IMG/VR virus record: IMGVR_UViG_3300037042_003896 | Span: 1 to 64,000 of that record | Source of the DNA: a virus | Length of the DNA: 64,000 nt | Reading direction: 5' to 3' (one strand) | In this document: one piece after another, positions 22,088 through 33,590 of the stretch | How positions within the stretch are numbered: position 1 is the first letter of the stretch | Layout: each line of letters begins with the position of its first letter | Made by a program: the position numbers and the translations under genes | Notes under the pieces: generated by a model | Seen by the model: only the letters and a program-made list of their open reading frames with translations | What the model was told of the DNA's origin: nothing | Databases searched by the model: none

Positions 22088-22576
22088 TTAATTTTGATTC
22101 ATTTTTAATCCTTTATTCCAAGCAGGTCTATTTTTTAATCTATCACTAGATGCTTTTCTTAATTCAGGATTTTTTATAAATTTTTCTTTACTTTTTAATC
22201 CAATCTTTTTTTTAGTTTCTTCTGAATGAAAAAATCTTCTTTCATTATTAACTTGAATATTATTGTAAATAGGACTATACATCCAAATATATTTATTTTC
22301 CCTATTTAAAATTTTTTCAGGAGAAGTACTCATTTCTACTATTTGAAAAATAAAAGTTTCTTCTCCATATTTATTCCAAGCATTTTGAAGATGGTGATTG
22401 CGATGTCTATTATGTTTTAAATCACATTTGTGTTGTGCAAAACGTTGTTTAATATTAGAACTACTACCAATATAAACATTATTGTTTATAAGATTTAATA
22501 TTTGATAGATACCACAATTTTTAAGAAGTTTTAATTTATCTTTTCTTTGAATATAAAATTCTTCTTCTGTTAACAT
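22088..22576 (-). CDS. GIY-YIG homing endonuclease with NUMOD3 motif
   Basis: GIYQI.N..N..VYIGSS..R..H, LQNAWNKYG, HSEETKKKI, AWNKG. Confidence 0.88.
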   Translation of the reverse strand: MLTEEEFYIQRKDKLKLLKNCGIYQILNLINNNVYIGSSSNIKQRFAQHKCDLKHNRHRNHHLQNAWNKYGEETFIFQIVEMSTSPEKILNRENKYIWMYSPIYNNIQVNNERRFFHSEETKKKIGLKSKEKFIKNPELRKASSDRLKNRPAWNKGLKMNQN

Positions 22577-22992: not shown

Positions 22993-23068
22993 AATATATT
23001 ATTTATTTAATTTTCATATAAAGGAGTCTCTACAAGATCATATAGTGTGAGGAGTAGGGAAATATCCA

Positions 23069-23278
23069 TTATCCTAAAAGTGTTGTAGTGGTGGTAGTTG
23101 TTGTAGAAGAAGAAGAAGTAGTGGTGGTTGTTGTAGGATTACAACATTCATATGCATTAATCTCTACCCATTTTCCTACTTTGGGCATTTTCCTAGCTAA
23201 TATTACAGAACTAGGAACTATATCTCCTGAACCATCGAATCTCACGAAGGCTTTAAGATCTCTTTTATTTGTTGCCAT
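23069..23278 (-). CDS. Small protein with poly-Thr/Ser tail (paralog B)
   Basis: LKAFVRFDGSG..KVGKW.EI..ECCNP followed by T6S4T8. Confidence 0.8.
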   Translation of the reverse strand: MATNKRDLKAFVRFDGSGDIVPSSVILARKMPKVGKWVEINAYECCNPTTTTTTSSSSTTTTTTTTLLG

Positions 23279-23296
23279 TTTCTTAAGTTTTAAAAA

Positions 23297-23485
23297 TTAA
23301 AAAGGTCCTCCTCTACCAGTTGTAGTGGTAGTAGTAGTAGTTGAAGGATTACAACATTCTGAGGCTGGTATTTCATACCACTTGCCAACTTTAGGTTTAT
23401 TCTTTCGAAGAACAAGACTGCCAGCAACCACTCGTCCACTTCCATCAAAGCGAACAAATGCTTTAAGATTTTTATCTTTTGCCAT
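23297..23485 (-). CDS. Small protein with poly-Thr tail (paralog A)
   Basis: Same domain as paralog B followed by ST8. Confidence 0.8.
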   Translation of the reverse strand: MAKDKNLKAFVRFDGSGRVVAGSLVLRKNKPKVGKWYEIPASECCNPSTTTTTTTTGRGGPF

Positions 23486-23496
23486 TTTAGTAAAAA

Positions 23497-24513
23497 TTAA
23501 TAGTTTAATTTATATTTATTTCGTAATTCATTTAATTTTGAGGTGTAATACCACGTACAATGTTTTTTTGATTCATCATGATTTAATATAAAATCTAGAT
23601 GAAAATCTTTCATAGGATCTTTACCTTGATGATATTTTCCTTTATAGAAACAAGGATAATTGTCCATTGTATCTCCAGATATTCCTGCATTATGAAAGAT
23701 TGCATAGGTATCTATTTTTATTATAGGATCAGGAGCCCAAGCAAAATCTAACTCTTTTACAACTTTACTTTTTCTATTAAAAAACCAAAGATTAAATTGT
23801 ATAGCCCAAAGATCTGCACACCATGATTGTATTCCACTATTTTCATCTTTAAAAAATTGTCGATTCACTTGTTGCAAATATGTTCTTATTGTAAGAACAT
23901 CTGCTTCAATTTTTTTCCAAAACGTAGAATCTATATTCTTTAATATATACTGAACTCCTCCAGTATTAGTATTATTATCTATTACAATTTGTTTATCTAT
24001 TCCTACTATTTTACAAACTTCTTTTAAAAAATCTCGTGATTTAGCCTCTTCTTGTTTATTAGGAAGTATATCTTTATACTTACTTTCAAAATATGAATTA
24101 TTTAAATAAGAATTAGCATCACTTACATAATTTACATCATCATCTAAAAGATGTTCTATATTTAATGATTTTAACCATATTATATCACAATCTGTATAGA
24201 TTATAGTTTTGGTTTGTAATTCTGGGTAAACTTCAAAATGTTGCCAAAGAATATGTGGTCTTAATATAGGAATATAAATATTTAAATATTCTCCTACTCC
24301 TTTGTCCTCATAAATAAATATATTTAATTTTGGATAATATTCTTTTAACTTTTCCCAATTTGTATTATATTTCCTATCTTTAGGTTTATATAATAAAATA
24401 TGGATTTGTTCTTCTTGAAAACCTCGTTCTAAACAAGATTCTATATATAGATGATTTTGCCATATAAAATATTGATCATCTGGTTGGCATGTAATTAATA
24501 TTGGTTTAGACAT
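23497..24513 (-). CDS. GT-A glycosyltransferase resembling HPAT/SERGT peptidyl O-glycosyltransferases
   Basis: YIPILRPHILWQHF...IIYTDCDII (DxD), GGVQY, SWCADLWA, FHNAG. Confidence 0.65.
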   Translation of the reverse strand: MSKPILITCQPDDQYFIWQNHLYIESCLERGFQEEQIHILLYKPKDRKYNTNWEKLKEYYPKLNIFIYEDKGVGEYLNIYIPILRPHILWQHFEVYPELQTKTIIYTDCDIIWLKSLNIEHLLDDDVNYVSDANSYLNNSYFESKYKDILPNKQEEAKSRDFLKEVCKIVGIDKQIVIDNNTNTGGVQYILKNIDSTFWKKIEADVLTIRTYLQQVNRQFFKDENSGIQSWCADLWAIQFNLWFFNRKSKVVKELDFAWAPDPIIKIDTYAIFHNAGISGDTMDNYPCFYKGKYHQGKDPMKDFHLDFILNHDESKKHCTWYYTSKLNELRNKYKLNY

Positions 24514-25048
24514 GATTCCACACTTTATTATTAATAATATAACCTATTAATGTTATTCCGACATTGTTTTTATAGGCAAGTTCTTTGTATGTAGTTTTAT
24601 TATTTTTGTATTCTTTTCTAATATTTATAACTTGTTCTTCAATTAATTTTGAATTTTTATTACCACTTCCTTTATAAGTATTAGGATCTCGATGAAGATA
24701 TGAATGTTTTATATTTTCACTTCTAGTAATCCATTCTAAATTACTTAAATTATTATTATGTTTATTATGATCAATATGATTAACTTCTATTAATTTAGTA
24801 GGATTATCTAAAAAAGTTAAAGCAACTATTCTATGAGTAGTTAAAGATTTAGATTTCCCAGCACCATTATATAATTTTACATGAAAATAACCACGACTAT
24901 CTACAAATTGTGTCAATATTTTTTGTTTTTTTAAATATTGATGAGTTGAGAGTATAATAATTCTTTCAATAGTCCTAATATTTCCTTTAGTACTTACTTC
25001 GTAATAATTTTCATATCCTTTTACTGATTTCCAAATTTCTATTTCCAT
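24506..25048 (-). CDS. NUMOD4-HNH homing endonuclease
   Basis: EIWKSVKGYENYYEVSTKG; HRIVA.TF, VNHID.NK.NN.LSNLEW.T..EN..H. Confidence 0.9.
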   Translation of the reverse strand: MEIEIWKSVKGYENYYEVSTKGNIRTIERIIILSTHQYLKKQKILTQFVDSRGYFHVKLYNGAGKSKSLTTHRIVALTFLDNPTKLIEVNHIDHNKHNNNLSNLEWITRSENIKHSYLHRDPNTYKGSGNKNSKLIEEQVINIRKEYKNNKTTYKELAYKNNVGITLIGYIINNKVWNHV

Positions 25049-25074
25049 AATATTATTATTATTAATTATAATAA

Positions 25075-25082
25075 CAAAGATA
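25075..25082 (-). promoter_or_regulatory. -7 box before NUMOD4-HNH
   Basis: TATCTTTG. Confidence 0.55.
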
Positions 25083-25162
25083 GAATTAAAATTTGACATA
25101 TCCTAATAAGTGATTGAATAATTTTTTTCATCTTTCATACGTAGTTTGGTTTTATTTTTACA

Positions 25163-25297
25163 TTAAGGGATTGCTGTGGTGGTAGTAGTTGTGGTGGAAG
25201 GACCAGCCACTCTAATAAGTTTTTCTAATTGCTTAGAAATTTGCCACAACAAATTGGTATTAGTTCCCCATCCTATTTGTCTACTTGGGATTGCCAT
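25163..25297 (-). CDS. 44-aa protein: fibre-type N-terminal anchor plus poly-Thr tail (not in track)
   Basis: MAIPSRQIGWGTNTNLLWQISKQLEKLIRVAGPSTTTTTTTAIP. Confidence 0.8.
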   Translation of the reverse strand: MAIPSRQIGWGTNTNLLWQISKQLEKLIRVAGPSTTTTTTTAIP

Positions 25298-25309
25298 TTT
25301 ATTTATAGT

Positions 25310-26134
25310 TTAATGTGTGTATTTAAATCGTTGGAAAAACCATTCGTGATTTTTATAAATCCAATCTGTAATGTCTTTTCCTAACAGTTCTTTTGCTCTT
25401 GACCTTACAGGTTCAAGTTTAGTTCTTATTTTATGATCTCCATAGATACCATAAACTTCATCATCTTCTTTTGTAACTTGTTCTATGTTATCAAAATCAT
25501 GAATATAATTAGGAAGTTCAAGATAGTCATATACTCGTTGCATTTCTTGATCTGGATAAAGACACAAATCTTCAAATTTTACAAAATGCATATGTTTGTC
25601 TAATCCCATTCTGAATATTTCTGCCAATCTTTCAATTGCCATTCCAAGAGGAGCTCCTTGTGACCAAAGATCAATTCTTTTAGCAACCGATGTTCCTTGC
25701 ATTTTACTCCAATCAAGTATATCATTATGCTTATCAGGAGCTGCTCTATAATTTTTTTCCATAGATGCAAAGACATCTCTAAGATCTCGAACAACCACTA
25801 TAACTTTAGGAGAAGGATGAACAAGATTTAGAAAATCATAATGTATTCCCCATCCTCTTGATTTATCAAGGACATATTTCTTATCTGTAATAGAACTATA
25901 AAATCCAAACATTCCTTGTCTACAGAATTCTAAAAATGCATCTCTCATTAAATCAGCATCTTGTGCTTTGAATTCAGGAGAAGTTGTATATTGTGCTCTT
26001 GCACTATATATTAATTCTAATACACCACTTGTTGGTGTAGCATAGAAATCAGGATTTTGAGCTATTATGTTTTGAAAAATTGTACTGCCTGATCGTGGTA
26101 ATGAACTTTGGTAAAAAACTTTTTCTATCATCAA
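25310..26134 (-). CDS. PAPS-dependent sulfotransferase
   Basis: 5'-PSB motif SLPRSGST; DKSR.W; 3'-PB motif VRDLRDVFAS; KFEDL. Confidence 0.85.
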   Translation of the reverse strand: MMIEKVFYQSSLPRSGSTIFQNIIAQNPDFYATPTSGVLELIYSARAQYTTSPEFKAQDADLMRDAFLEFCRQGMFGFYSSITDKKYVLDKSRGWGIHYDFLNLVHPSPKVIVVVRDLRDVFASMEKNYRAAPDKHNDILDWSKMQGTSVAKRIDLWSQGAPLGMAIERLAEIFRMGLDKHMHFVKFEDLCLYPDQEMQRVYDYLELPNYIHDFDNIEQVTKEDDEVYGIYGDHKIRTKLEPVRSRAKELLGKDITDWIYKNHEWFFQRFKYTH

Positions 26135-27006
26135 GGTTGGTTTTTGAGTGATTCGATTATTTCTTTAGTATTAAAAATTTCACTTTCTACATTGTAAGGA
26201 AACTCAATAAGATCTCCTGTAATGTTGAATTTTGAGAAATACGAATTTCTCAATTCAGGTTTAATAGTGAAGGGATTAGCTATTATGTTACTATGTAAGC
26301 TATAACCGAACACATTTGGGCTATTAACTATCCAACAAACTGTTGAAGGTTTATTCATAGCTGCTGCTGTATGTTGAGCAAAACTATCAATTAATAATCT
26401 CTTATCACTATTTTGAATTAAGACTGCCAATGACCTAAATGTGTCTGTAATAGGAACAGTTCCTTCATATCCAATTTGATCTTCACGCTTTATATGAACT
26501 ATGTTATATTCATCCTTAAAAGCGTTAATTATTTCTTGAACAACTACTATTGGAATATCTCTTGCCCAGGAATATTTAAGATCACTTAGCGCACCTCCAT
26601 TAGTTTGAAGAAGAAGAATAGGTTTGTCAGAAGTATATTTAGTACTAAAGAACTTTTTCTCCCTATCTGTTAAATAAATCTTTGGCTGTTCTTCATTATA
26701 AGGAACATTAAATAGTTTACACCACGTTTCAATAAGATGTTCATCTTGCCTAATGTGTGATGTTTCTAAATAAGGATCATGAGCGAATATTTTTATTTCT
26801 TTATCTTCTATATATTGCTCATAGAAATAACTCATACTTCCAAAGGTGTAGGTTCTGTCTACAAAAGGATTGTTAAGGAAGACATCAGAATATCCCGACA
26901 CCACTATTAAAGTGGAATCAGGATATTCTTTTTTAATTGCCTCACAAACTGCTGTAGCTAATACACATTTACCTATTCCCCCGTTGATTTGGAATATAAT
27001 GTTCAT
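26131..27006 (-). CDS. GT-B glycosyltransferase, GT9 (heptosyltransferase)-like
   Basis: GGIGK...T....IKK.YP, NNPFVD, IDSFAQH.AAA.NKPS.V.W. Confidence 0.75.
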   Translation of the reverse strand: MNIIFQINGGIGKCVLATAVCEAIKKEYPDSTLIVVSGYSDVFLNNPFVDRTYTFGSMSYFYEQYIEDKEIKIFAHDPYLETSHIRQDEHLIETWCKLFNVPYNEEQPKIYLTDREKKFFSTKYTSDKPILLLQTNGGALSDLKYSWARDIPIVVVQEIINAFKDEYNIVHIKREDQIGYEGTVPITDTFRSLAVLIQNSDKRLLIDSFAQHTAAAMNKPSTVCWIVNSPNVFGYSLHSNIIANPFTIKPELRNSYFSKFNITGDLIEFPYNVESEIFNTKEIIESLKNQP

Positions 27007-27015
27007 AGATACTTA

Positions 27016-27348
27016 TTAAAAATCAGTGTTAATAGTTACAAATTCTGTAGCAACTGTGCCCATTTCAACAGCGATAGTTGTTAAAAGAACACTATCATCA
27101 ACTCCCCATCCTGAAAGTTGAGTGGATAATAATGTAGTGTTTGATGTTGATAACCTATTAAATGATGCAGGAACACCAGCTTCATCTAATGTAATTGTTC
27201 CAAACACCACTTCAAAGTTTACCTTTGTAGCTCCAGCACCATAAGGGCGAGCAATAGCAGTCATATAATCTGCTGTGATAGTTTCTACTTCAAAAGGAGT
27301 GATTTGTTTTGTGATTGTAGCCACTGGGCTAATTTTTGCGTACAACAT
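27016..27348 (-). CDS. Hypothetical protein, possibly fibre-associated
   Basis: Beta-rich 110-aa ORF downstream of the fibre genes. Confidence 0.6.
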   Translation of the reverse strand: MLYAKISPVATITKQITPFEVETITADYMTAIARPYGAGATKVNFEVVFGTITLDEAGVPASFNRLSTSNTTLLSTQLSGWGVDDSVLLTTIAVEMGTVATEFVTINTDF

Positions 27349-27377
27349 GTTTTTAAGATTTAAAGATTAATTAATTA

Positions 27378-27385
27378 CAAAGTTA
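27378..27385 (-). promoter_or_regulatory. -7 box heading the glycosylation cluster
   Basis: Intergenic TAACTTTG. Confidence 0.6.
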
Positions 27386-27410
27386 TAAAATTATTTTTGA
27401 TTATTGTATT

Positions 27411-29639
27411 TTATTTTAAAATTTCTATTCCATCCCATGCTGTTACAGCATTAACGTCTTTTCTTGTTCCTATCAAAAGGACATTATATTCACCGTCACT
27501 GTTTGTGGTGACAGTTACACACGTTTGTTCTTTATTCACCACACCAAATCCATATCCTAAATGGCATGTAGCGGAAATAAACACCTGATCATTCTCATTT
27601 AAATATTTGTGATAATCAGGAAGTTCAATTATTCCACTACAATTACATGTTCTAACAATATGACGATAAATATTATCCCCTGCTGTTGGACTTTCTACAA
27701 ACGAATGTTGTAAATAATGTGTATTAGTCTTTGCAGGATTTGGATGATTTATTCTGAATGTTCCTGATGTTTTTGAAAGAGCATTAACATATGTTGTGCA
27801 AGCAGCACCTGCTGTAAGATTAGAACCAACAATGAATGAATTAGCAAAACCAGCTGTACTATTTGTTGTTCCACCTAATATTCCTGAACAAGCTCCAGAT
27901 GCTGTATTACAATATCCACCACTAACAGTTGAATAATTAGCACATGCTATATTAGTCCTTCCACCACTAACGGTTGAAAAATTACTAGATGCTGTATTAA
28001 CATACCCACCACTAACAGTTGACCAATTACCAGATGCTGTATTACTATTTCCACCACTAACAGTTGAACGATTACCAGATGCTATATTAATATATCCACC
28101 ACTAACAGTTGCATAATTACTAGATGCTGTATTAATCCTTCCACCACTGACAGTTGAAAAATTGAGAGATGCTGTATTACTATATCCACCACTAACAGTT
28201 GACCAATAACCAGATGCTGTATTACTATATCCACCACCAACAGTTGAAATATAACCAGATGCTGTATTAGTATTTCCACCACTAACAGTTGAATAATTAG
28301 CACATGCTGTATTACTATATCCACCACTAACAGTTGAATATTGACCACATGCTTTATTAGTCTTTCCACCACCAACAGTTGACCAATAACCAGATGCTGT
28401 ATTACTATATCCACCACCAACAGTTGAAATATAACCAGATGCTGTATTACTCCTTCCACCACTAACAGTTGAATAATAACCAGATGCTGTATTACTCCTT
28501 CCACCACTAACAGTTGAGGCATCACTAGATGCTATATTCTGAAATCCACCACTAACAGTTGCATAATTACTAGATGCTGTATTAATCCTTCCACCACTGA
28601 CAGTTGAATAAAGACTAGATGCTTTATTTTGAAATCCTCCACCAATAAAACTCATACAACCAGCGTCAGTTGGAGTTGGTGCTACAGACCAATAAGTTGA
28701 ATTCCACGTTCCTCCTGTGGTGTTATTTCCAATACCACCTGATATTGTTGCGCCTAATGAATAAAGACTGCAAGTTGCATTGGAGATTATGTTATTATTT
28801 CCACCACCAACAAATGAATATTGACCAGATGCTGTATTACTATATCCACCACCAACAGTTGAAAAAGAATTAGATGCTGTATTACTATATCCACCACTAA
28901 CAGTTGCATAATTACTAGATGCTGTATTAAGATTTCCACCACCAACAAATGAAAAATTACTAGATGCTGTATTAACATACCCACCACTAACAGTTGACCA
29001 ATTACCAGATGCTGTATTACTATTTCCACCACTAACAGTTGAACGATTACCAGATGCTATATTAATATATCCACCACTAACAGTTGAACAATCACCAGAT
29101 GCTGTATTTTGAAATCCTCCACCAACAAAAGACATAGCACCAGCATTACAAATAGTTGGTGCTGATGTAAATACACATGTTGCTAAATCCCAAGTTCCTC
29201 CTGTTGTATTATTTCCTACACCACCTGTAACAACTGCTCCTATTGCAAGACAACCTGAAGTTACATTGCAAACATTGTTACAATTACCACCACCAATGAA
29301 ACCTTGTACTGCTTGAGATAGATTTTTAAATCCACCACTAATTGTTGAATGATTACCAGATGCTGTATTAACATACCCACCACTAACAGTTGACCAATAA
29401 CCAGATGCTGTATTAGTAAATCCGCCACTAACAGTTGAATAATCTCCACTAGCACTATTACTATTCCCACAACGCATTGTGGAATTTGCTCCTGTTCCCA
29501 AGATCATAATAGATGAACTTGGAGGAATAGGTACAACTGTAGAAGCTACCACTTGTGTGAGCCGTGAAAGTTGTTTTAATATATTTTGTAATAGGTTTGA
29601 ATCATCACTCCAACCTATTTGTCTCGAAGGTATTGCCAT
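27411..29639 (-). CDS. Virion fibre/adhesin with 14-aa beta-solenoid repeats
   Basis: NTASGxxSTVSGGx repeats; C-terminal F.I.HP..L.H..VE.P chaperone-like domain. Confidence 0.75.
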   Translation of the reverse strand: MAIPSRQIGWSDDSNLLQNILKQLSRLTQVVASTVVPIPPSSSIMILGTGANSTMRCGNSNSASGDYSTVSGGFTNTASGYWSTVSGGYVNTASGNHSTISGGFKNLSQAVQGFIGGGNCNNVCNVTSGCLAIGAVVTGGVGNNTTGGTWDLATCVFTSAPTICNAGAMSFVGGGFQNTASGDCSTVSGGYINIASGNRSTVSGGNSNTASGNWSTVSGGYVNTASSNFSFVGGGNLNTASSNYATVSGGYSNTASNSFSTVGGGYSNTASGQYSFVGGGNNNIISNATCSLYSLGATISGGIGNNTTGGTWNSTYWSVAPTPTDAGCMSFIGGGFQNKASSLYSTVSGGRINTASSNYATVSGGFQNIASSDASTVSGGRSNTASGYYSTVSGGRSNTASGYISTVGGGYSNTASGYWSTVGGGKTNKACGQYSTVSGGYSNTACANYSTVSGGNTNTASGYISTVGGGYSNTASGYWSTVSGGYSNTASLNFSTVSGGRINTASSNYATVSGGYINIASGNRSTVSGGNSNTASGNWSTVSGGYVNTASSNFSTVSGGRTNIACANYSTVSGGYCNTASGACSGILGGTTNSTAGFANSFIVGSNLTAGAACTTYVNALSKTSGTFRINHPNPAKTNTHYLQHSFVESPTAGDNIYRHIVRTCNCSGIIELPDYHKYLNENDQVFISATCHLGYGFGVVNKEQTCVTVTTNSDGEYNVLLIGTRKDVNAVTAWDGIEILK

Positions 29640-31680
29640 AACTTATATGTTTTTTTCTATTATTAGTTTATCTATATCTTTCCTTTCGGCATATACACTA
29701 TAAAAACAATCTATCTGGACTCCATTAATTTCAATCTCATTAGCTGTGACCGATTTGACTGATAGGGCTTGATAATCCCCAATAGGCGTAAGATGTACTG
29801 TTATTGTATCTTCATGGACTAAATTAATCCAATATTCAGGAAGTGTAATTTTATTTATTCCTGTTAATCTTCCACGAACATAAACAGAATGTTCAGGTCC
29901 TTCTAAGACACCATATTGTAGGGTCATTTGTGGCTTGGTTGGATGAGGAATTACAAATGATTTTGTTGCTCCATATATTCCACCACTAGCACAAAGATTA
30001 TTAACATAAGTGGTACAAACTGCTCCTGCTGTAAGATTAGAACCAACAATAAATGAATCTGCAAAACCAGCTGTACTATTACTCTTTCCACCTAATATTC
30101 CTGAACAAGCTCCAGATGCTATATTACTAACTCCACCACCAACAGTTGAATAATTACCAGATGCTGTATTAACATTTCCACCACCAACAGTTGAAATATA
30201 ACCAGATGCTATATTACTTTTTCCACCACCAACAGTTGAATAATTACCAGATGCTGTATTAGTATTTCCACCACCAACAATTGAATAATAACCAGATGCT
30301 GTATTACTCCTTCCACCACCAACAGTTGAAATATAACCAGATGCTATATTACTTTTTCCACCACCAACAGTTGAAGTATTACCAGATGCTGTATTAGTAT
30401 TTCCACCACCAACAGTTGAAATATAACCAGATGCTGTATTACTATTTCCACCACTAACAGTTGAATATTGACCAGATGCTGTGTTACCAGTTCCACCACT
30501 AACAGTTGCACGATTACTAGATGCTGTATTAACCCTTCCACCACCAACAAATGAATATTGACCAGATGCTGTATTACAATATCCACCACCAACAGTTGAA
30601 CTAGTAGCATTTGCTACATTTCTAGTCCCACCACTAACAGTCGAACAAATACCAGATGCTGTGTTTAATAAACCACATCTTATTGTAGAATCTGCTCCTG
30701 CACCTACTATTATTATTGGTGCTGCGCCTCCTGGTGCTGGTGTATTGACTAATACACCATTAGTTGTTACACAAACAAAACATCCTGTTGTTAAATTAGC
30801 TGCAGATAAACAGTTTACGAATGTTGTACAAGTTTGTGTTGCTGTAAGATTTGAGCCAACAATAAATGAATCAGCAAATCCACATGTGTTATTTAATTTT
30901 CCACCTAGAATAGTTGAAAAATCACTAGATGCTATATTATTACATCCTCCTGATACAGAAGAATAATCATTAAGTGCGCAGTTTTGAAATCCTCCACTTA
31001 CCGTTGAGGCATATCCCGCTGCTATATTTCCTGGACGAGTTGTAGGTGGATAAAATAATGATGCAGTATTCCCTCCTCCACTGATTGTCGAAAGTGTTCC
31101 TGTAGCTAAATTACATCCACCACCACTTATTGTCGCAAGAGTACCACATATAGAATTAAAACTTCCACTACCAATAAACGAATTATAACCGCTATATATA
31201 CGATTAAAGTCTCCTCCTGTTATAGCGCTATTTCCACTTATCGCACAATTATAATATCCTCCACTAACAGTTGAATTTCTACCAGATACTCGATTACTAC
31301 GTCCACCACCTATAAAGGAATACATTCCTGAAGCAGTATTACAAGTTCCACCTACTACTACATCATCATATGATGTTGCTGAATTTTTAGTTCCTCCACC
31401 AACAAAAGTTCCAAGATATGTAGAATTATTACATATTCCTCCACCAATTGTTGCGTTATTACCAGATGCTGTATTAGTATTTCCACCACCAACAAATGAA
31501 TAACCACCAGATGCCATATTACCAATTCCACCACTAATAGTTGAATAACTATTATATGCTGTATTATTTATTCCACCACTAACAGTTGAACCAACACTTG
31601 AACAAACAGGATTAGATGCTGTATTACAAAATCCACCACTGACAGTTGAATAAAGACCAGATGCACTATTAAAACTTCCA
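27880..31680. repeat. 42-bp coding tandem repeat blocks in both fibre genes
   Basis: Recurrent CCACCAC(T/C)AACAGTTGA...(C/T)AGATGCTGTATTA units. Confidence 0.9.
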
Positions 31681-31841
31681 TCTCTCATTGTAGAACATGT
31701 TCCTGTTCCTGCAATCATAATAGAAGGGGCAGAAGGAGGACTAACTGCTGCAATTATTGCGTCAAGATTTAATTCTCCTTTTACAGGAGTTGTGGTTTTT
31801 CTCCAAATACCACTTTTGATATATACATTTGAGTTTGACAT
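29643..31841 (-). CDS. Second virion fibre/adhesin with 14-aa repeats
   Basis: Same repeat; KSFVIPHP..LQYGVLEGPE C-terminal domain. Confidence 0.75.
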   Translation of the reverse strand: MSNSNVYIKSGIWRKTTTPVKGELNLDAIIAAVSPPSAPSIMIAGTGTCSTMRDGSFNSASGLYSTVSGGFCNTASNPVCSSVGSTVSGGINNTAYNSYSTISGGIGNMASGGYSFVGGGNTNTASGNNATIGGGICNNSTYLGTFVGGGTKNSATSYDDVVVGGTCNTASGMYSFIGGGRSNRVSGRNSTVSGGYYNCAISGNSAITGGDFNRIYSGYNSFIGSGSFNSICGTLATISGGGCNLATGTLSTISGGGNTASLFYPPTTRPGNIAAGYASTVSGGFQNCALNDYSSVSGGCNNIASSDFSTILGGKLNNTCGFADSFIVGSNLTATQTCTTFVNCLSAANLTTGCFVCVTTNGVLVNTPAPGGAAPIIIVGAGADSTIRCGLLNTASGICSTVSGGTRNVANATSSTVGGGYCNTASGQYSFVGGGRVNTASSNRATVSGGTGNTASGQYSTVSGGNSNTASGYISTVGGGNTNTASGNTSTVGGGKSNIASGYISTVGGGRSNTASGYYSIVGGGNTNTASGNYSTVGGGKSNIASGYISTVGGGNVNTASGNYSTVGGGVSNIASGACSGILGGKSNSTAGFADSFIVGSNLTAGAVCTTYVNNLCASGGIYGATKSFVIPHPTKPQMTLQYGVLEGPEHSVYVRGRLTGINKITLPEYWINLVHEDTITVHLTPIGDYQALSVKSVTANEIEINGVQIDCFYSVYAERKDIDKLIIEKNI

Positions 31842-31905
31842 AGTTGTAATAGTTTATGTGTAGAATGGATAAATTCTATTTTTAGTTGTTAATTGTGTAC
31901 TTTAT

Positions 31906-32127
31906 TTAAACCATTTTATTTATATATCTGGATAATAGTATATAACAAGAGAAAAACGAGCCTGAGAGTCCATAAAAAGTAAGATCTGCTACCCAGAATG
32001 ATTGCGTCAAATCCATGATGAGTTTGAATATAAAATCGTATCCAAATGGCAAAAAGAACATCCCTAACATTAAGGATAGTTCTTTCATACTTCTTAAGTT
32101 TTTTAGCCTTTGGTTTACTATCTCCAT
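31906..32127 (-). CDS. Small two-TM membrane protein
   Basis: Two hydrophobic stretches; a second, overlapping 73-aa frame also exists. Confidence 0.5.
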   Translation of the reverse strand: MEIVNQRLKNLRSMKELSLMLGMFFLPFGYDFIFKLIMDLTQSFWVADLTFYGLSGSFFSCYILLSRYINKMV

Positions 32128-32286: not shown

Positions 32287-32910
32287 TTAAAATTTTAATT
32301 TCCAATAACTAGAAAGTGAATACTGAATTTCGCCATTATATCCGACATGAACTCCAAATATTCTATCCTTTTTATCTTTATACAATGCTCCTATTTGCAT
32401 ACCGTTAAGCAGTTCTGTAGGATTTCCTATCAGTGCCATACCTACATACACTTGTCTTTTAGGTGGAGCTTGTTCTATTATTGTAATTATCTTTTCGGGA
32501 ATTTTTAAATCACTTATTAATTTACTTCCTATTAATTTGTTTATTTTAATTGTATCAAAGACTGTAACAAATCCAAATGTATCAATGGGAAACTTTGTTT
32601 CATAAATATTTTGAGCAAAGAGTTTATTACCAAGGTCTGTATATTGTTTTAATAATCCTGGATAGTTTGTATCTGGAACATATTCAGGAATAGTTTGCCA
32701 AATGGTATCAGGTTTGGTTTTAATATACTTTGGTTTTCCTACAACAGTATCGTGTATAGTAATGATATTTATTATAGTATCTATCTTAGGGACTATAACA
32801 GGAACATCAGTTCTATTACAACGTTGCAAGATTATAATTAAAAAAAGTACAATGATTAACACACTCGGTAACAGCGTATTAAGATTAGCCTTTGTAAGAC
32901 GTATAAACAT
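32287..32910 (-). CDS. Putative spanin-like lysis protein
   Basis: N-terminal TM ending LQRC, DT-rich linker, beta-rich C-terminus ending WKLKF; next to the endolysin. Confidence 0.5.
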   Translation of the reverse strand: MFIRLTKANLNTLLPSVLIIVLFLIIILQRCNRTDVPVIVPKIDTIINIITIHDTVVGKPKYIKTKPDTIWQTIPEYVPDTNYPGLLKQYTDLGNKLFAQNIYETKFPIDTFGFVTVFDTIKINKLIGSKLISDLKIPEKIITIIEQAPPKRQVYVGMALIGNPTELLNGMQIGALYKDKKDRIFGVHVGYNGEIQYSLSSYWKLKF

Positions 32911-33358
32911 TTTTGCTTCCTGATTTAGTTGATTTTAAAACTTGTTTTCTTTGCTTACCTGTAGATTCATAACTTACATGTACCCAATCAGGATTTATAT
33001 TAAATCCAAATTCCCAAATAAGTTGATCGAATTCTAAATGATCTTTAATAAAATTGAACACATCTGCATTTGTAATACTATTGGCAGACCCATCCATATC
33101 TATATCAAGGGCTTCTCCTTGACAGTGTTGAGAAGTAAGACTACTCCCAGCAATAGATGAATTTAACTCTTTACTCCTATATCCACTTGATATATAAATA
33201 GGAACACCAAAATGTTTACGTATAGGTTCAAATATTTTTTCAGCAAGAAGTTTAAGGTTTTTTAAATGTTCCTCTGTAGGCTGATTATTGATTCCTTTAC
33301 GTTTGGCACTATCACTTCGTATAACTTCTGCTAATGTTAAGTGTTCAGATAGATTCAT
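32885..33358 (-). CDS. Endolysin, peptidase M15 family
   Basis: LSEHLTL.E, ISSGYRS..LN, SQH..GEA.D, FDQLIWE, WVHVS. Confidence 0.88.
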   Translation of the reverse strand: MNLSEHLTLAEVIRSDSAKRKGINNQPTEEHLKNLKLLAEKIFEPIRKHFGVPIYISSGYRSKELNSSIAGSSLTSQHCQGEALDIDMDGSANSITNADVFNFIKDHLEFDQLIWEFGFNINPDWVHVSYESTGKQRKQVLKSTKSGSKNVYTSYKG

Positions 33359-33590
33359 CTTCGTGTGGTTTTGATTTCTTAAAAATTTTATTCGCTGCAC
33401 CTAGTCCTAAAGATCCAAATGCTAACATGCCTATTGCGCTCACCAGTGAATCCGCAGGTGTAAACACTCCCTTTGATAGAACATTAATAAATAATGTCAC
33501 ACAGAGGCTTAAAGTGCATAATATTCCTACAAATCTATTGGAAGAATAGTGTCCTCTTTCATCCTTAAAAATTTGTAAAAATAATATCAT
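33345..33590 (-). CDS. Putative holin (2 TM)
   Basis: SSNRF plus two hydrophobic helices; overlaps the endolysin start. Confidence 0.6.
   Translation of the reverse strand: MILFLQIFKDERGHYSSNRFVGILCTLSLCVTLFINVLSKGVFTPADSLVSAIGMLAFGSLGLGAANKIFKKSKPHEDESI

What the first reader, a model, noticed from the sequence alone, without database searches (positions are those of the whole stretch)
25163..29639. A 44-aa poly-Thr peptide shares its N-terminus with the 742-aa fibre
Both start MAIPSRQIGW..NLL.(Q/N)I.KQL..L..V. This points to a modular virion-docking or trimerising anchor of about 30 aa that carries either a long adhesin or only a Thr7 tail. It is the strongest sequence link between the glycosylation locus and the virion surface. 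The two proteins could compete for the same sites.
Basis: partly seen in the sequence, partly recalled or inferred. Interest (0 to 1): 0.75.

Follow-up and report, generated by a model that had tools for sequence, protein, structure and literature searches.

The report
Shared plug-in anchor of phage fibres
A freshwater crAss-like phage starts both a long fibre and a 44-residue threonine-tailed mini-protein with the same 30-residue segment, which hundreds of related uncultured phages also put in front of many different surface domains, so it is most likely a plug that fixes them to the virus particle.

Summary
The 44-aa ORF (25163-25297, minus) and the 742-aa fibre (27411-29639, minus) share their first 34 residues (19/34 identical, first 10 identical, E 2e-9). 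The small ORF is not a remnant. It belongs to a large family of 43-85-aa proteins built as a 30-aa head, one to three runs of 7-8 Thr, then a stop. The same head, always at residue 1, precedes collagen, C1q, lectin, LRR and adhesin-repeat domains. The head is under protein-level selection (dN/dS 0.14, synonymous sites saturated). It is near-exclusive to uncultured crAss-like phages. The usual layout is [head+passenger][head+polyThr mini][glycosyltransferase phrog_4417][second anchor+polyThr]. Upstream and downstream heads differ consistently in charge at residues 11-15, which argues against simple competition for one site. Virion docking is inferred, not shown. The best analogy is ΦcrAss001, whose fibres are held by their first 26-58 residues, but I found no sequence homology to those segments. 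No curated family and no paper describes the module. This scan already noted the same mini-fibre on another genome (e1-5983019).

The parts
25163..25297 (-). 44-aa mini-fibre ORF: 30-aa head, short spacer, S-T7 tract, AIP, stop
   Evidence: ORF; stop 4 codons upstream; 421 small relatives; contigs of 4 runs from 4 studies span it without gaps
25208..25297 (-). Head module, copy 1 (residues 1-30 of the mini-protein)
25175..25198 (-). S-T7 tract with mixed Thr codons, the presumed O-glycosylation acceptor
   Evidence: T-run lengths peak at 7 and 8 in the family
27411..29639 (-). 742-aa fibre: head module, then UspA1/YadA-type repeats (PF18792, PF21300), then a C-terminal domain
29550..29639 (-). 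Head module, copy 2 (residues 1-30 of the fibre), a divergent variant with Gln18
23497..24513 (-). Glycosyltransferase-like gene (phrog_4417), the conserved downstream neighbour of the mini-protein gene
   Evidence: directly after the last module gene in 34 loci and with only an HNH between in 7, out of 65 loci.
24506..25099 (-). NUMOD4 + HNH_3 homing endonuclease inserted between the mini-protein gene and the GT
   Evidence: (same position in 7 of 65 loci)
25310..26134 (-). Sulfotransferase (PF13469/PF00685). In this lineage it lies between the fibre and the mini-protein gene.
26131..27006 (-). GT9-like protein (phrog_8954)
27016..27348 (-). 110-aa ORF of unknown function that travels with the GT9-like and sulfotransferase genes
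   Evidence: L003, L071
23297..23485 (-). 62-aa protein of a second anchor family (about 47-aa head ending ECCNP) with a polyThr tail
23069..23278 (-). 69-aa paralogue of the second anchor family with a Thr/Ser tail
29643..31841 (-). 732-aa sister fibre without the head module

Best explanation
The first 30 residues form a self-contained N-terminal docking and oligomerisation module for virion-surface appendages of a clade of freshwater crAss-like phages. They consist of an invariant extended MAIPSRQIGW segment followed by an amphipathic helix, NLLWQISKQLExLxxV. The module is translated at the very N-terminus. It probably forms a short (likely trimeric) helical bundle and plugs into a conserved socket on the particle. 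I put a capsid hexon pocket at about 50% and the tail collar or hub at about 35%. Anything can be hung behind it. In this window that is a 742-aa adhesin-repeat fibre or, in the 44-aa protein, nothing but a 7-Thr tract. The neighbouring phrog_4417 glycosyltransferase most likely O-glycosylates that tract. The mini-protein would therefore be a minimal 'glyco-fibre' of anchor plus sugar-bearing linker, not a broken gene. Shown: the shared sequence, modularity, strict N-terminal position, protein-level selection, conserved gene order and restriction to phages. Inferred: helix and oligomer state, virion attachment, glycosylation.
For: - **Family size.** 421 proteins of 24-77 aa match the mini-protein. 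All 47 that I fetched have the head plus Thr runs. All 120 listed have at least one run of T>=4; 134 of 165 runs are 7 or 8 long; 115 of 120 end within 4 residues of the last run.
- **Modularity.** 280 clusters at 50% identity carry the head in 1.84 billion representatives, with lengths 44-660 aa among the best 150 listed. In 140 of those 150 it starts at residue 1-2. Pfam on 122 long members gives collagen in 9, and C1q, Laminin_G_3, LRR_5, Fib_succ_major, Lcl_C and a set of overlapping TPR-type models in 1 each; most have no Pfam family.
- **Selection.** Among 92 distinct DNA copies, invariant residues use all synonymous codons (six Leu codons at L16; both Ser codon families at S5). Median dN/dS is 0.14 with dS about 1.2. 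Head identity to the window is a median 80%, against 28-67% for neighbouring genes.
- **Gene order.** In 65 non-redundant IMG/VR loci, 50 have 2-4 head-bearing genes, and 46 of those 50 pairs are adjacent (gap <=60 nt). The downstream gene is a polyThr-only mini in 32 of 50. The GT follows directly in 34, with only an HNH between in 7, and within 1.5 kb in 10. A second set of loci shows the same order.
- **Exposed conserved residues.** W18 and K22 fall outside the a/d-like hydrophobic positions 17, 20, 24 and 27. The hydrophobic moment is 1.27 at 100 degrees against 0.19 at 160 degrees. This suggests contact with a partner, not only self-packing.
- **Precedent.** ΦcrAss001 holds its fibres by short N-termini: gp21 trimer residues 1-38 and gp29 dimer residues 1-58 in hexon pockets, gp22 residues 1-26 in the tail hub (passages of PMC10172136).
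- **Phage restriction.** 192 and 186 matching stretches in IMG/VR, against 1 in 185,579 prokaryote species genomes.
- **Parallel design.** A second, unrelated anchor with the same polyThr tail, with or without a passenger, lies just after the GT in 58 (+6) of 94 informative loci.
Against: - No structural, proteomic or glycan evidence exists. Virion location is analogy only.
- No sequence homology to ΦcrAss001 gp21, gp22 or gp29 (hhalign probability below 1%).
- The PDB profile search found only designed helical repeats, a chance match to an amphipathic helix.
- No RNA run holds the region, so expression is untested.
- Many polyThr proteins in this genome lack the head, and about half of the long members lack polyThr. 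Head and Thr tract are separable, and their link to the GT is by neighbourhood only.
- Head versus tail site cannot be decided from these data.
Confidence: 0.6

Rival explanations
1. The head is a recognition tag (leader-like) that recruits the adjacent glycosyltransferase or sulfotransferase to the Thr tract, as RiPP leaders recruit their tailoring enzymes. The mini-protein is then a leader plus core that is modified and perhaps released.
For: The architecture is a conserved 30-aa head plus a short variable Thr-rich core. The GT lies immediately downstream in 41 of 54 informative loci.
Against: The same head precedes collagen, C1q, lectin and adhesin domains of 100-996 aa, and about half of these lack any Thr tract. 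Other polyThr proteins in this genome, and the second anchor family, lack the head yet sit by the same GT. No RiPP-type enzyme, protease or exporter was found among the neighbours scanned.
Confidence: 0.12
2. The head is only an oligomerisation (trimerisation) tag. Attachment to the particle, if any, goes through other parts or other proteins.
For: The helix is amphipathic with heptad-like spacing. Trimeric passengers are present: collagen in 9 and C1q in 1 of 122, and UspA1-type repeats in the window fibre.
Against: The most invariant part is the non-helical MAIPSRQIGW segment, and the surface-facing W18 and K22 are also conserved. Collagen and C1q trimerise on their own. A mini-protein of tag plus seven Thr would have no means of localisation. 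The strict residue-1 position (140 of 150) suggests that a free N-terminus is needed.
Confidence: 0.1
3. The mini-protein is a fibre-less cap that competes with the long fibre for the same sockets and so sets the number of fibres per particle.
For: The head is shared, and the mini gene is kept next to the fibre genes in most loci.
Against: The window copies are only 19/34 identical, and the fibre copy lacks Trp18. Residues 11-15 are net negative in all 53 upstream copies, but net positive in 33, neutral in 6 and negative in 14 of the 53 downstream copies. This points to non-equivalent sites or partners. Fifteen of 65 loci have a single head gene.
Confidence: 0.1
4. The head is a packaging signal that targets diverse proteins into the capsid interior for ejection, like the capsid-targeting sequence of T4 internal proteins (recalled, not checked here).
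For: A short conserved N-terminus precedes hypervariable passengers, and the cassette lies just after the giant cargo-like genes.
Against: The passengers are typical extracellular binding or fibre domains (collagen, C1q, lectin, LRR, adhesin repeats) and mucin-like Thr linkers, not enzymes or DNA-binding proteins.
Confidence: 0.05
5. The 44-aa ORF is a truncated fibre gene left by insertion of the HNH endonuclease.
For: An HNH gene lies directly downstream.
Against: Identical polyThr-only minis are followed directly by the GT, with no HNH, in 34 of 65 loci. The family has 421 clusters with stereotyped ends. Contigs from four lake and sediment studies keep the ORF without gaps.
Confidence: 0.02

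Closest known systems
ΦcrAss001 head fibres gp21 (trimer, residues 1-38) and gp29 (dimer, residues 1-58) and tail fibre gp22 (residues 1-26); Bayfield et al. 2023, PMC10172136 (passages read)
   Same: It is a crAss-like phage in which short N-terminal segments alone hold small fibres in hexon pockets or in the tail hub. Two different fibres serve two different sockets. gp29 sits in the lysis gene block. Here the cassette follows an endolysin and a holin-like gene.
   Different: There is no sequence similarity. The ΦcrAss001 fibres do not share an N-terminus with each other. No polyThr-only member and no adjacent glycosyltransferase is described in the passages read.
Modular receptor-binding proteins with conserved N-terminal anchors, such as the P22-type tailspike head-binding domain, the T7 gp17 N-terminus, and the short N-terminal docking peptides of secondary depolymerases in Klebsiella phages (recalled, not checked here)
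   Same: A conserved N-terminus fixes the protein to the particle while the distal domains are swapped between phages.
   Different: Those anchors are mostly folded domains of 100 aa or more. Here the unit is 30 aa, occurs in 2-4 tandem genes per genome, and also exists with no passenger at all.
Mycobacteriophage virion O-glycosylation (Freeman et al. 2023, Cell Host Microbe; seen only as a reference entry in PMC12801897; content recalled; PMC10527164 not held)
   Same: Phage-encoded glycosyltransferases are thought to decorate virion proteins on Ser/Thr-rich tracts.
   Different: There the acceptors are extensions of major capsid or tail-tube proteins. Here the acceptors are separate mini-proteins with their own anchors, and no glycan has been measured.
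Capsid decoration and head-fibre proteins (T4 Hoc/Soc, φ29 gp8.5, T5 pb10; recalled)
   Same: They are small accessory proteins that bind capsid symmetry sites and display binding domains. Their sizes are similar to the median 160 aa of head-bearing proteins.
   Different: They share no common plug across passengers and have no Thr-only members.

Membership tests
crAss-type fibre N-terminal docking segment (functional class, as in ΦcrAss001 gp21/gp29/gp22) | Short segment at the extreme N-terminus of the fibre protein | tested here: met
   the match starts at residue 1-2 in 140 of the 150 best representatives. Of the rest, 7 are tandem double heads and 3 have longer called starts.
crAss-type fibre N-terminal docking segment (functional class, as in ΦcrAss001 gp21/gp29/gp22) | The segment is bound in a capsid hexon pocket or in the tail hub of the virion | not testable with these tools
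crAss-type fibre N-terminal docking segment (functional class, as in ΦcrAss001 gp21/gp29/gp22) | Sequence homology to gp21, gp22 or gp29 | tested here: not met
   hhalign probability is 0.1-0.7%. The module is therefore not a member of those protein families, only a functional analogue.
crAss-type fibre N-terminal docking segment (functional class, as in ΦcrAss001 gp21/gp29/gp22) | The host genome is a crAss-like phage | tested here: met
   The portal matches phrog_6547 (E 4.5e-99) and TerL matches phrog_6681. The best GenBank portal matches are crAss-like phages at about 25-29% identity. The contig is about 100 kb with giant ORFs.
Modular receptor-binding or decoration proteins with a shared anchor | The same anchor on unrelated distal domains | tested here: met
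Virion O-glycosylation substrate | Ser/Thr-rich acceptor tract next to a phage glycosyltransferase | tested here: met
Virion O-glycosylation substrate | Glycan covalently attached to the protein | not testable with these tools
   This needs mass spectrometry or glycan staining.
RiPP precursor peptide | Leader plus core next to leader-dependent tailoring enzymes, a protease and an exporter | tested here: not met
   No such families were found among the neighbours. The same head sits on proteins of up to 996 aa.
Any curated protein family (Pfam, PHROGs, NCBIfam) | Match of the 44-aa protein or of the fibre N-terminus to a curated model | tested here: not met
   The 44-aa protein matches no family in Pfam, PHROGs or NCBIfam. 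The fibre N-terminus taken alone matches none in NCBIfam, and no Pfam or PHROG match of the whole fibre covers its first 60 residues.

The most novel reading that the evidence does not exclude
Freshwater crAss-like phages use a plug-and-display system. Two unrelated short anchors (this 30-aa head and a roughly 47-aa ECC-ending head) each fit a different socket on the particle. Each is followed by a ruler-like T7-8 unit that the sandwiched glycosyltransferase loads with sugars. The Thr-only mini-proteins are the default occupants, giving the capsid a mucin-like glycan brush. Passenger-bearing paralogues add adhesins. The consistently acidic upstream heads and mostly basic downstream heads, together with rare natural head-head fusions, could mean that the mini-protein and the fibre co-assemble side by side in one socket.
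Probability: 0.3. Interest if true: 0.75.

Novelty: new variant of a known kind. Interest (0 to 1): 0.58.

Why it matters
Short N-terminal plugs that hold fibres on crAss-like virions have been seen in one structure (ΦcrAss001), where each fibre has its own plug. Here a single 30-residue plug is reused across hundreds of uncultured lake and sediment phages for very different surface domains. It also occurs alone with a sugar-acceptor tract. If confirmed, three things follow.

- It would provide a simple sequence tag for finding the surface-exposed, host- or environment-binding proteins of an abundant uncultured phage group.
- It would provide a natural minimal substrate (44 aa) for testing phage-encoded protein O-glycosylation.
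- It could serve as a display handle for phage engineering in laboratory hosts.

It would also extend virion glycosylation from mycobacteriophages to phages whose crAss-like kinship suggests Bacteroidota hosts; the host was not determined here.

Tried and rejected
**Searches that found nothing**
- Megablast of 23000-32000 against GenBank phages gave no match.
- tblastn of the fibre against GenBank phages gave no match, possibly because of the low-complexity filter.
- tblastn of the 44-aa protein at E<=1 gave no match.
- The PDB profile search gave only designed helical repeats and weak chance hits, which I reject as homology.
- The ESM Atlas returned only unnamed viral clusters of 45-52 aa and held no structure.
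- Literature: 'poly-threonine' + phage + fiber gave 0 papers. Searches on virion glycosylation, crAss-like/freshwater/Bacteroidota/glycosyltransferase/head fiber and Crassvirales/freshwater/lake/tail fiber/collagen listed nothing that describes this module, judging by titles and abstracts only.

**Expression**
- No RNA holder was listed for the region. This is not evidence either way.

**Ideas tested and dropped or downweighted**
- HNH-truncation idea: rejected.
- DNA-level repeat or recombination handle: rejected because synonymous sites are saturated.
- Overall identity does not separate upstream from downstream heads (71.9% against 68.8%). Only the charge of residues 11-15 does.
- The tandem double-head form is rare: 1 of 149 head ORFs in 73 IMG/VR loci and 7 of 150 representatives. 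It is only a hint of head-head contact.
- One contig in run X4 joins the two head copies (25246 to 29610). It has only 24 letters on one side, so it may be an assembly join through the repeat and I did not use it.

**Rows left out**
- In some searches, loci with identical head-gene sets were collapsed (14 of 79).
- L001, L002 and L082 were excluded because they are the genome's own remainder and ΦcrAss001.

**Not seen**
- Supplementary files of papers were not opened. Extended data of PMC10172136 could hold more on fibre N-termini.

Full report
**What is there.**
- The window is the first 64 kb of a single 99,683-bp contig of about 30% G+C.
- Its portal (phrog_6547, E 4.5e-99) and large terminase (phrog_6681) match crAss-like phages. 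The portal is only about 25-29% identical to GenBank crAss-like portals.
- With its giant ORFs of 4809, 1936, 1286, 971 and 796 aa, it is a distant crAss-like phage.
- Near-identical DNA occurs in lake-water and sediment metagenomes. Eleven runs hold at least half of the sampled words, and the 20 runs that hold any part come from 12 studies.
- On the minus strand the late operon runs: lysis genes (endolysin phrog_894 at 32885-33400), a 732-aa fibre, the 742-aa fibre, a 110-aa ORF, a GT9-like gene, a sulfotransferase, the 44-aa ORF, an HNH endonuclease, a phrog_4417 glycosyltransferase-like gene, and two more polyThr mini-proteins.

**The observation.**
- Both ORFs begin MAIPSRQIGW and align without gaps over 34 residues (19 identical, E 2e-9).
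- Only these two copies exist in the contig.
- Their DNA differs at synonymous positions in 4 of the first 10 codons, including a switch between the two Ser codon families. The similarity is therefore kept as protein.

**The small ORF is a real, widespread gene.**
- A search limited to proteins of 24-77 aa found 421 relatives. The 120 listed have E-values from 7e-20 to 3e-10.
- All 47 that I fetched have the same plan.
- Among the 120 listed, every one has at least one run of four or more Thr. Of 165 runs, 134 are exactly 7 or 8 long. In 115 of 120 the protein ends within 4 residues of the last run, typically with AAP, ATP, VAP or P.
- Contigs from four runs of four different studies cover the ORF without gaps.
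- HNH-truncation is also excluded. In 34 of 65 non-redundant loci the mini gene is followed directly by the glycosyltransferase with no HNH.

**The head is modular and strictly N-terminal.**
- A filter-free phmmer search with the 33-residue head against 1.84 billion representatives gave 280 clusters at E<=0.001.
- The best 150 are 44-660 aa long, median 160.
- In 140 of the 150 the match starts at residue 1 or 2. Seven carry two heads in tandem and three have longer called starts.
- By a simple pattern count, 61 of the 150 have a Thr run after the head followed by a further domain, 55 have no Thr run, 14 have collagen-like repeats and 7 are Thr-only.
- Pfam on the 122 members of 100 aa or more found collagen in 9. 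It found C1q, Laminin_G_3, BspA-type LRR, Fib_succ_major, Lcl_C and a set of overlapping TPR-type models in one member each. Most members had no family.
- The window's own passenger carries UspA1-type adhesin repeats.
- Collagen, C1q and UspA1/YadA-type heads are trimeric folds by established knowledge, so a trimeric state for the head is plausible.

**Selection.**
- I collected 126 head copies (92 distinct DNA sequences) from 79 IMG/VR loci plus the window.
- Invariant residues use all available synonymous codons: six Leu codons at position 16, four Gly codons at position 9, and both Ser families at position 5.
- For 323 random pairs the median dN was 0.17, dS 1.24 and dN/dS 0.14.
- Head identity to the window copy is a median 80%. 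The neighbouring genes are 28-67% identical, and the glycosyltransferase 49%.
- The most conserved parts are the non-helical MAIPSRQIGW segment and residues N15, L16, L17, W18, I20, K22, L24 and L27.
- The hydrophobic residues 17, 20, 24 and 27 have a 3-4-3 spacing, and the hydrophobic moment peaks at the alpha-helical angle (1.27 at 100 degrees against 0.19 at 160 degrees). On that register W18 and K22 face outward.
- I take conservation of outward-facing residues and of the extended N-terminal arm as a sign of binding to a conserved partner. This is inference.

**Gene neighbourhood.**
- The head is near-exclusive to phage contigs. There were 192 confirmed stretches in IMG/VR and 186 with a looser profile. 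There were none in 50,697 GenBank phage records. There was 1 in 185,579 prokaryote species genomes, a 2.1-kb contig binned with a Collierbacteria MAG.
- In 65 non-redundant loci, 47 have two head-bearing genes, 2 have three, 1 has four and 15 have one. In 46 of the 50 multi-copy loci the first two are adjacent, with a gap of 60 nt or less.
- The upstream protein has a median length of 190 aa and the downstream one 55 aa. The downstream one is a Thr-only mini in 32 of 50 loci and has a Thr run within 25 residues of the head in 42 of 50. For the upstream one the figure is 9 of 50.
- The phrog_4417 gene follows the last head gene directly in 34 loci, after an HNH in 7, after another ORF within 1.5 kb in 10, and further away in 1. 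In 11 loci the contig ends first, and in 2 the gene is absent despite room.
- The second set of loci shows the same order, with up to three head genes before the mini.
- Just after the glycosyltransferase, 58 (+6 one gene further) of 94 informative loci carry a Thr-run ORF. Of the 58, 50 begin with a different, roughly 47-aa head ending in a Cys-Cys motif, again with or without a passenger.
- The window's 62-aa and 69-aa ORFs belong to this second family.
- The window lineage is a variant in which the 110-aa, GT9-like and sulfotransferase block has moved between the fibre and the mini gene (compare L003 with L018, L064 and L076).

**Same site or different sites?**
- Residues 11-15 are net negative in all 53 distinct upstream copies (-2 in 35, -1 in 18). 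In the 53 downstream copies they are net positive in 33, neutral in 6 and negative in 14.
- In the window the fibre copy is acidic (SDDSN) and unusually has Gln at position 18. The mini copy is neutral (GTNTN).
- These steady differences argue for non-equivalent sockets or side-by-side assembly, not simple competition.
- Rare natural fusions of two heads in one chain give a weak hint that heads sit next to each other.

**Comparison with what is known.**
- I read passages of the ΦcrAss001 atlas (PMC10172136).
- They state that a gp21 trimer (residues 1-38) binds the pocket of planar hexons, and a gp29 dimer (residues 1-58) binds the pocket of winged hexons.
- They state that the tail-fibre protein gp22 is held in the collar hub by residues 1-26, and that other crassviruses may use uncharacterised proteins for analogous roles.
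- This is the closest precedent for how the head would work.
- It is not homology. Profile comparison of the head with gp21, the first 100 residues of gp22, and gp29 gave probabilities below 1%.
- No Pfam, PHROG or NCBIfam model matches the 44-aa protein. The fibre N-terminus taken alone was scanned only against NCBIfam and matched nothing; no Pfam or PHROG match of the whole fibre covers its first 60 residues.
- The small size of most head-bearing proteins, the existence of passenger-less members, and the position after the lysis genes lean towards a capsid site. ΦcrAss001 gp29 also lies among lysis genes.
- The 742-aa adhesin-type fibre would fit a tail site equally well. I cannot decide between them.

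**Glycosylation** is inferred from neighbourhood only. An earlier follow-up on this genome (e1-6060617) reached the same reading for the enzyme. I confirmed only the adjacency.

**Verdict.**
- The reading as a modular anchor is well supported for modularity and conservation, but remains an inference for virion attachment.
- The competition idea is doubtful.
- The module is an undescribed family that works like known crAss fibre plugs, with a new twist: Thr-only mini-fibres.
- This scan had already noted the same 44-residue mini-fibre on another genome (e1-5983019).
- This report adds the paired-paralogue pattern, the passenger catalogue, the selection analysis and the ΦcrAss001 comparison.

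Noticed in passing
window 24506-25099 (minus): A NUMOD4/HNH_3 homing endonuclease sits exactly between the mini-protein gene and the glycosyltransferase. The same slot is occupied by an HNH homologue in 7 of 65 related loci, so it looks like a recurrent homing site.
   Followed up: partly
window 22088-22576 (minus): The 162-aa ORF matches homing endonuclease families, one of them with a GIY-YIG motif (phrog_314, E 8.6e-22). It is a second mobile endonuclease in the same locus, present in only a few related loci.
   Followed up: no
window 23069-23485 (minus); loci: There is a second modular anchor family: a roughly 47-aa head (..KAFVRFDGSGR..KVGKW..ECC) followed by Thr runs, with or without a passenger of 150-230 aa. 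It lies right after the glycosyltransferase in most loci.
   Followed up: partly
protein family: Thr-run length is stereotyped. Of 165 runs, 82 are T7 and 52 are T8, separated or ended by x-A/T-P. It looks like a unit of fixed length, not a free low-complexity linker.
   Followed up: partly
window 27776-29400: In lake and sediment metagenome contigs the repeat region of the 742-aa fibre shows many skips and back-joins. The flanks, including the head-coding end (29400-29700), stay nearly identical in three of the four runs. The repeat blocks seem to be reshuffled in nature, or mis-assembled.
   Followed up: no
window 25246 and 29610: One contig of run X4 joins the two head copies and skips the 4.4 kb between them. 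Only 24 letters lie on one side, so it may be an assembly join through the repeat or a relative with adjacent head genes.
   Followed up: no
P0147, P0149, P0151, P0153, P0157, P0169, P0176, P0200, P0223; L083 6004: Some proteins carry two heads in tandem. Several are only 62-89 aa with nothing else, and others have a 350-400-aa passenger. They are a possible clue to head-head contact.
   Followed up: partly
L156 (CAIQPO010000041.1, 2144 bp): The only hit to the head in 185,579 prokaryote genomes is a 2.1-kb contig binned with a Candidatus Collierbacteria MAG. It is probably a mis-binned phage fragment.
   Followed up: no
window 25176-25313, 23088-23300, 23325-23591 (plus): The poly-Val ORFs on the opposite strand (MVVVVV...) are mirror images of the Thr tracts and should not be taken for genes.
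   Followed up: no
G000:C1 64457-70399, 74856-76333, 78480-79613 (minus): Large structural proteins beyond the window (a 1980-aa ORF and ORFs of 237, 269 and 377 aa) carry several T7-11 and mixed Thr/Ser linkers but no head module.
   Followed up: no
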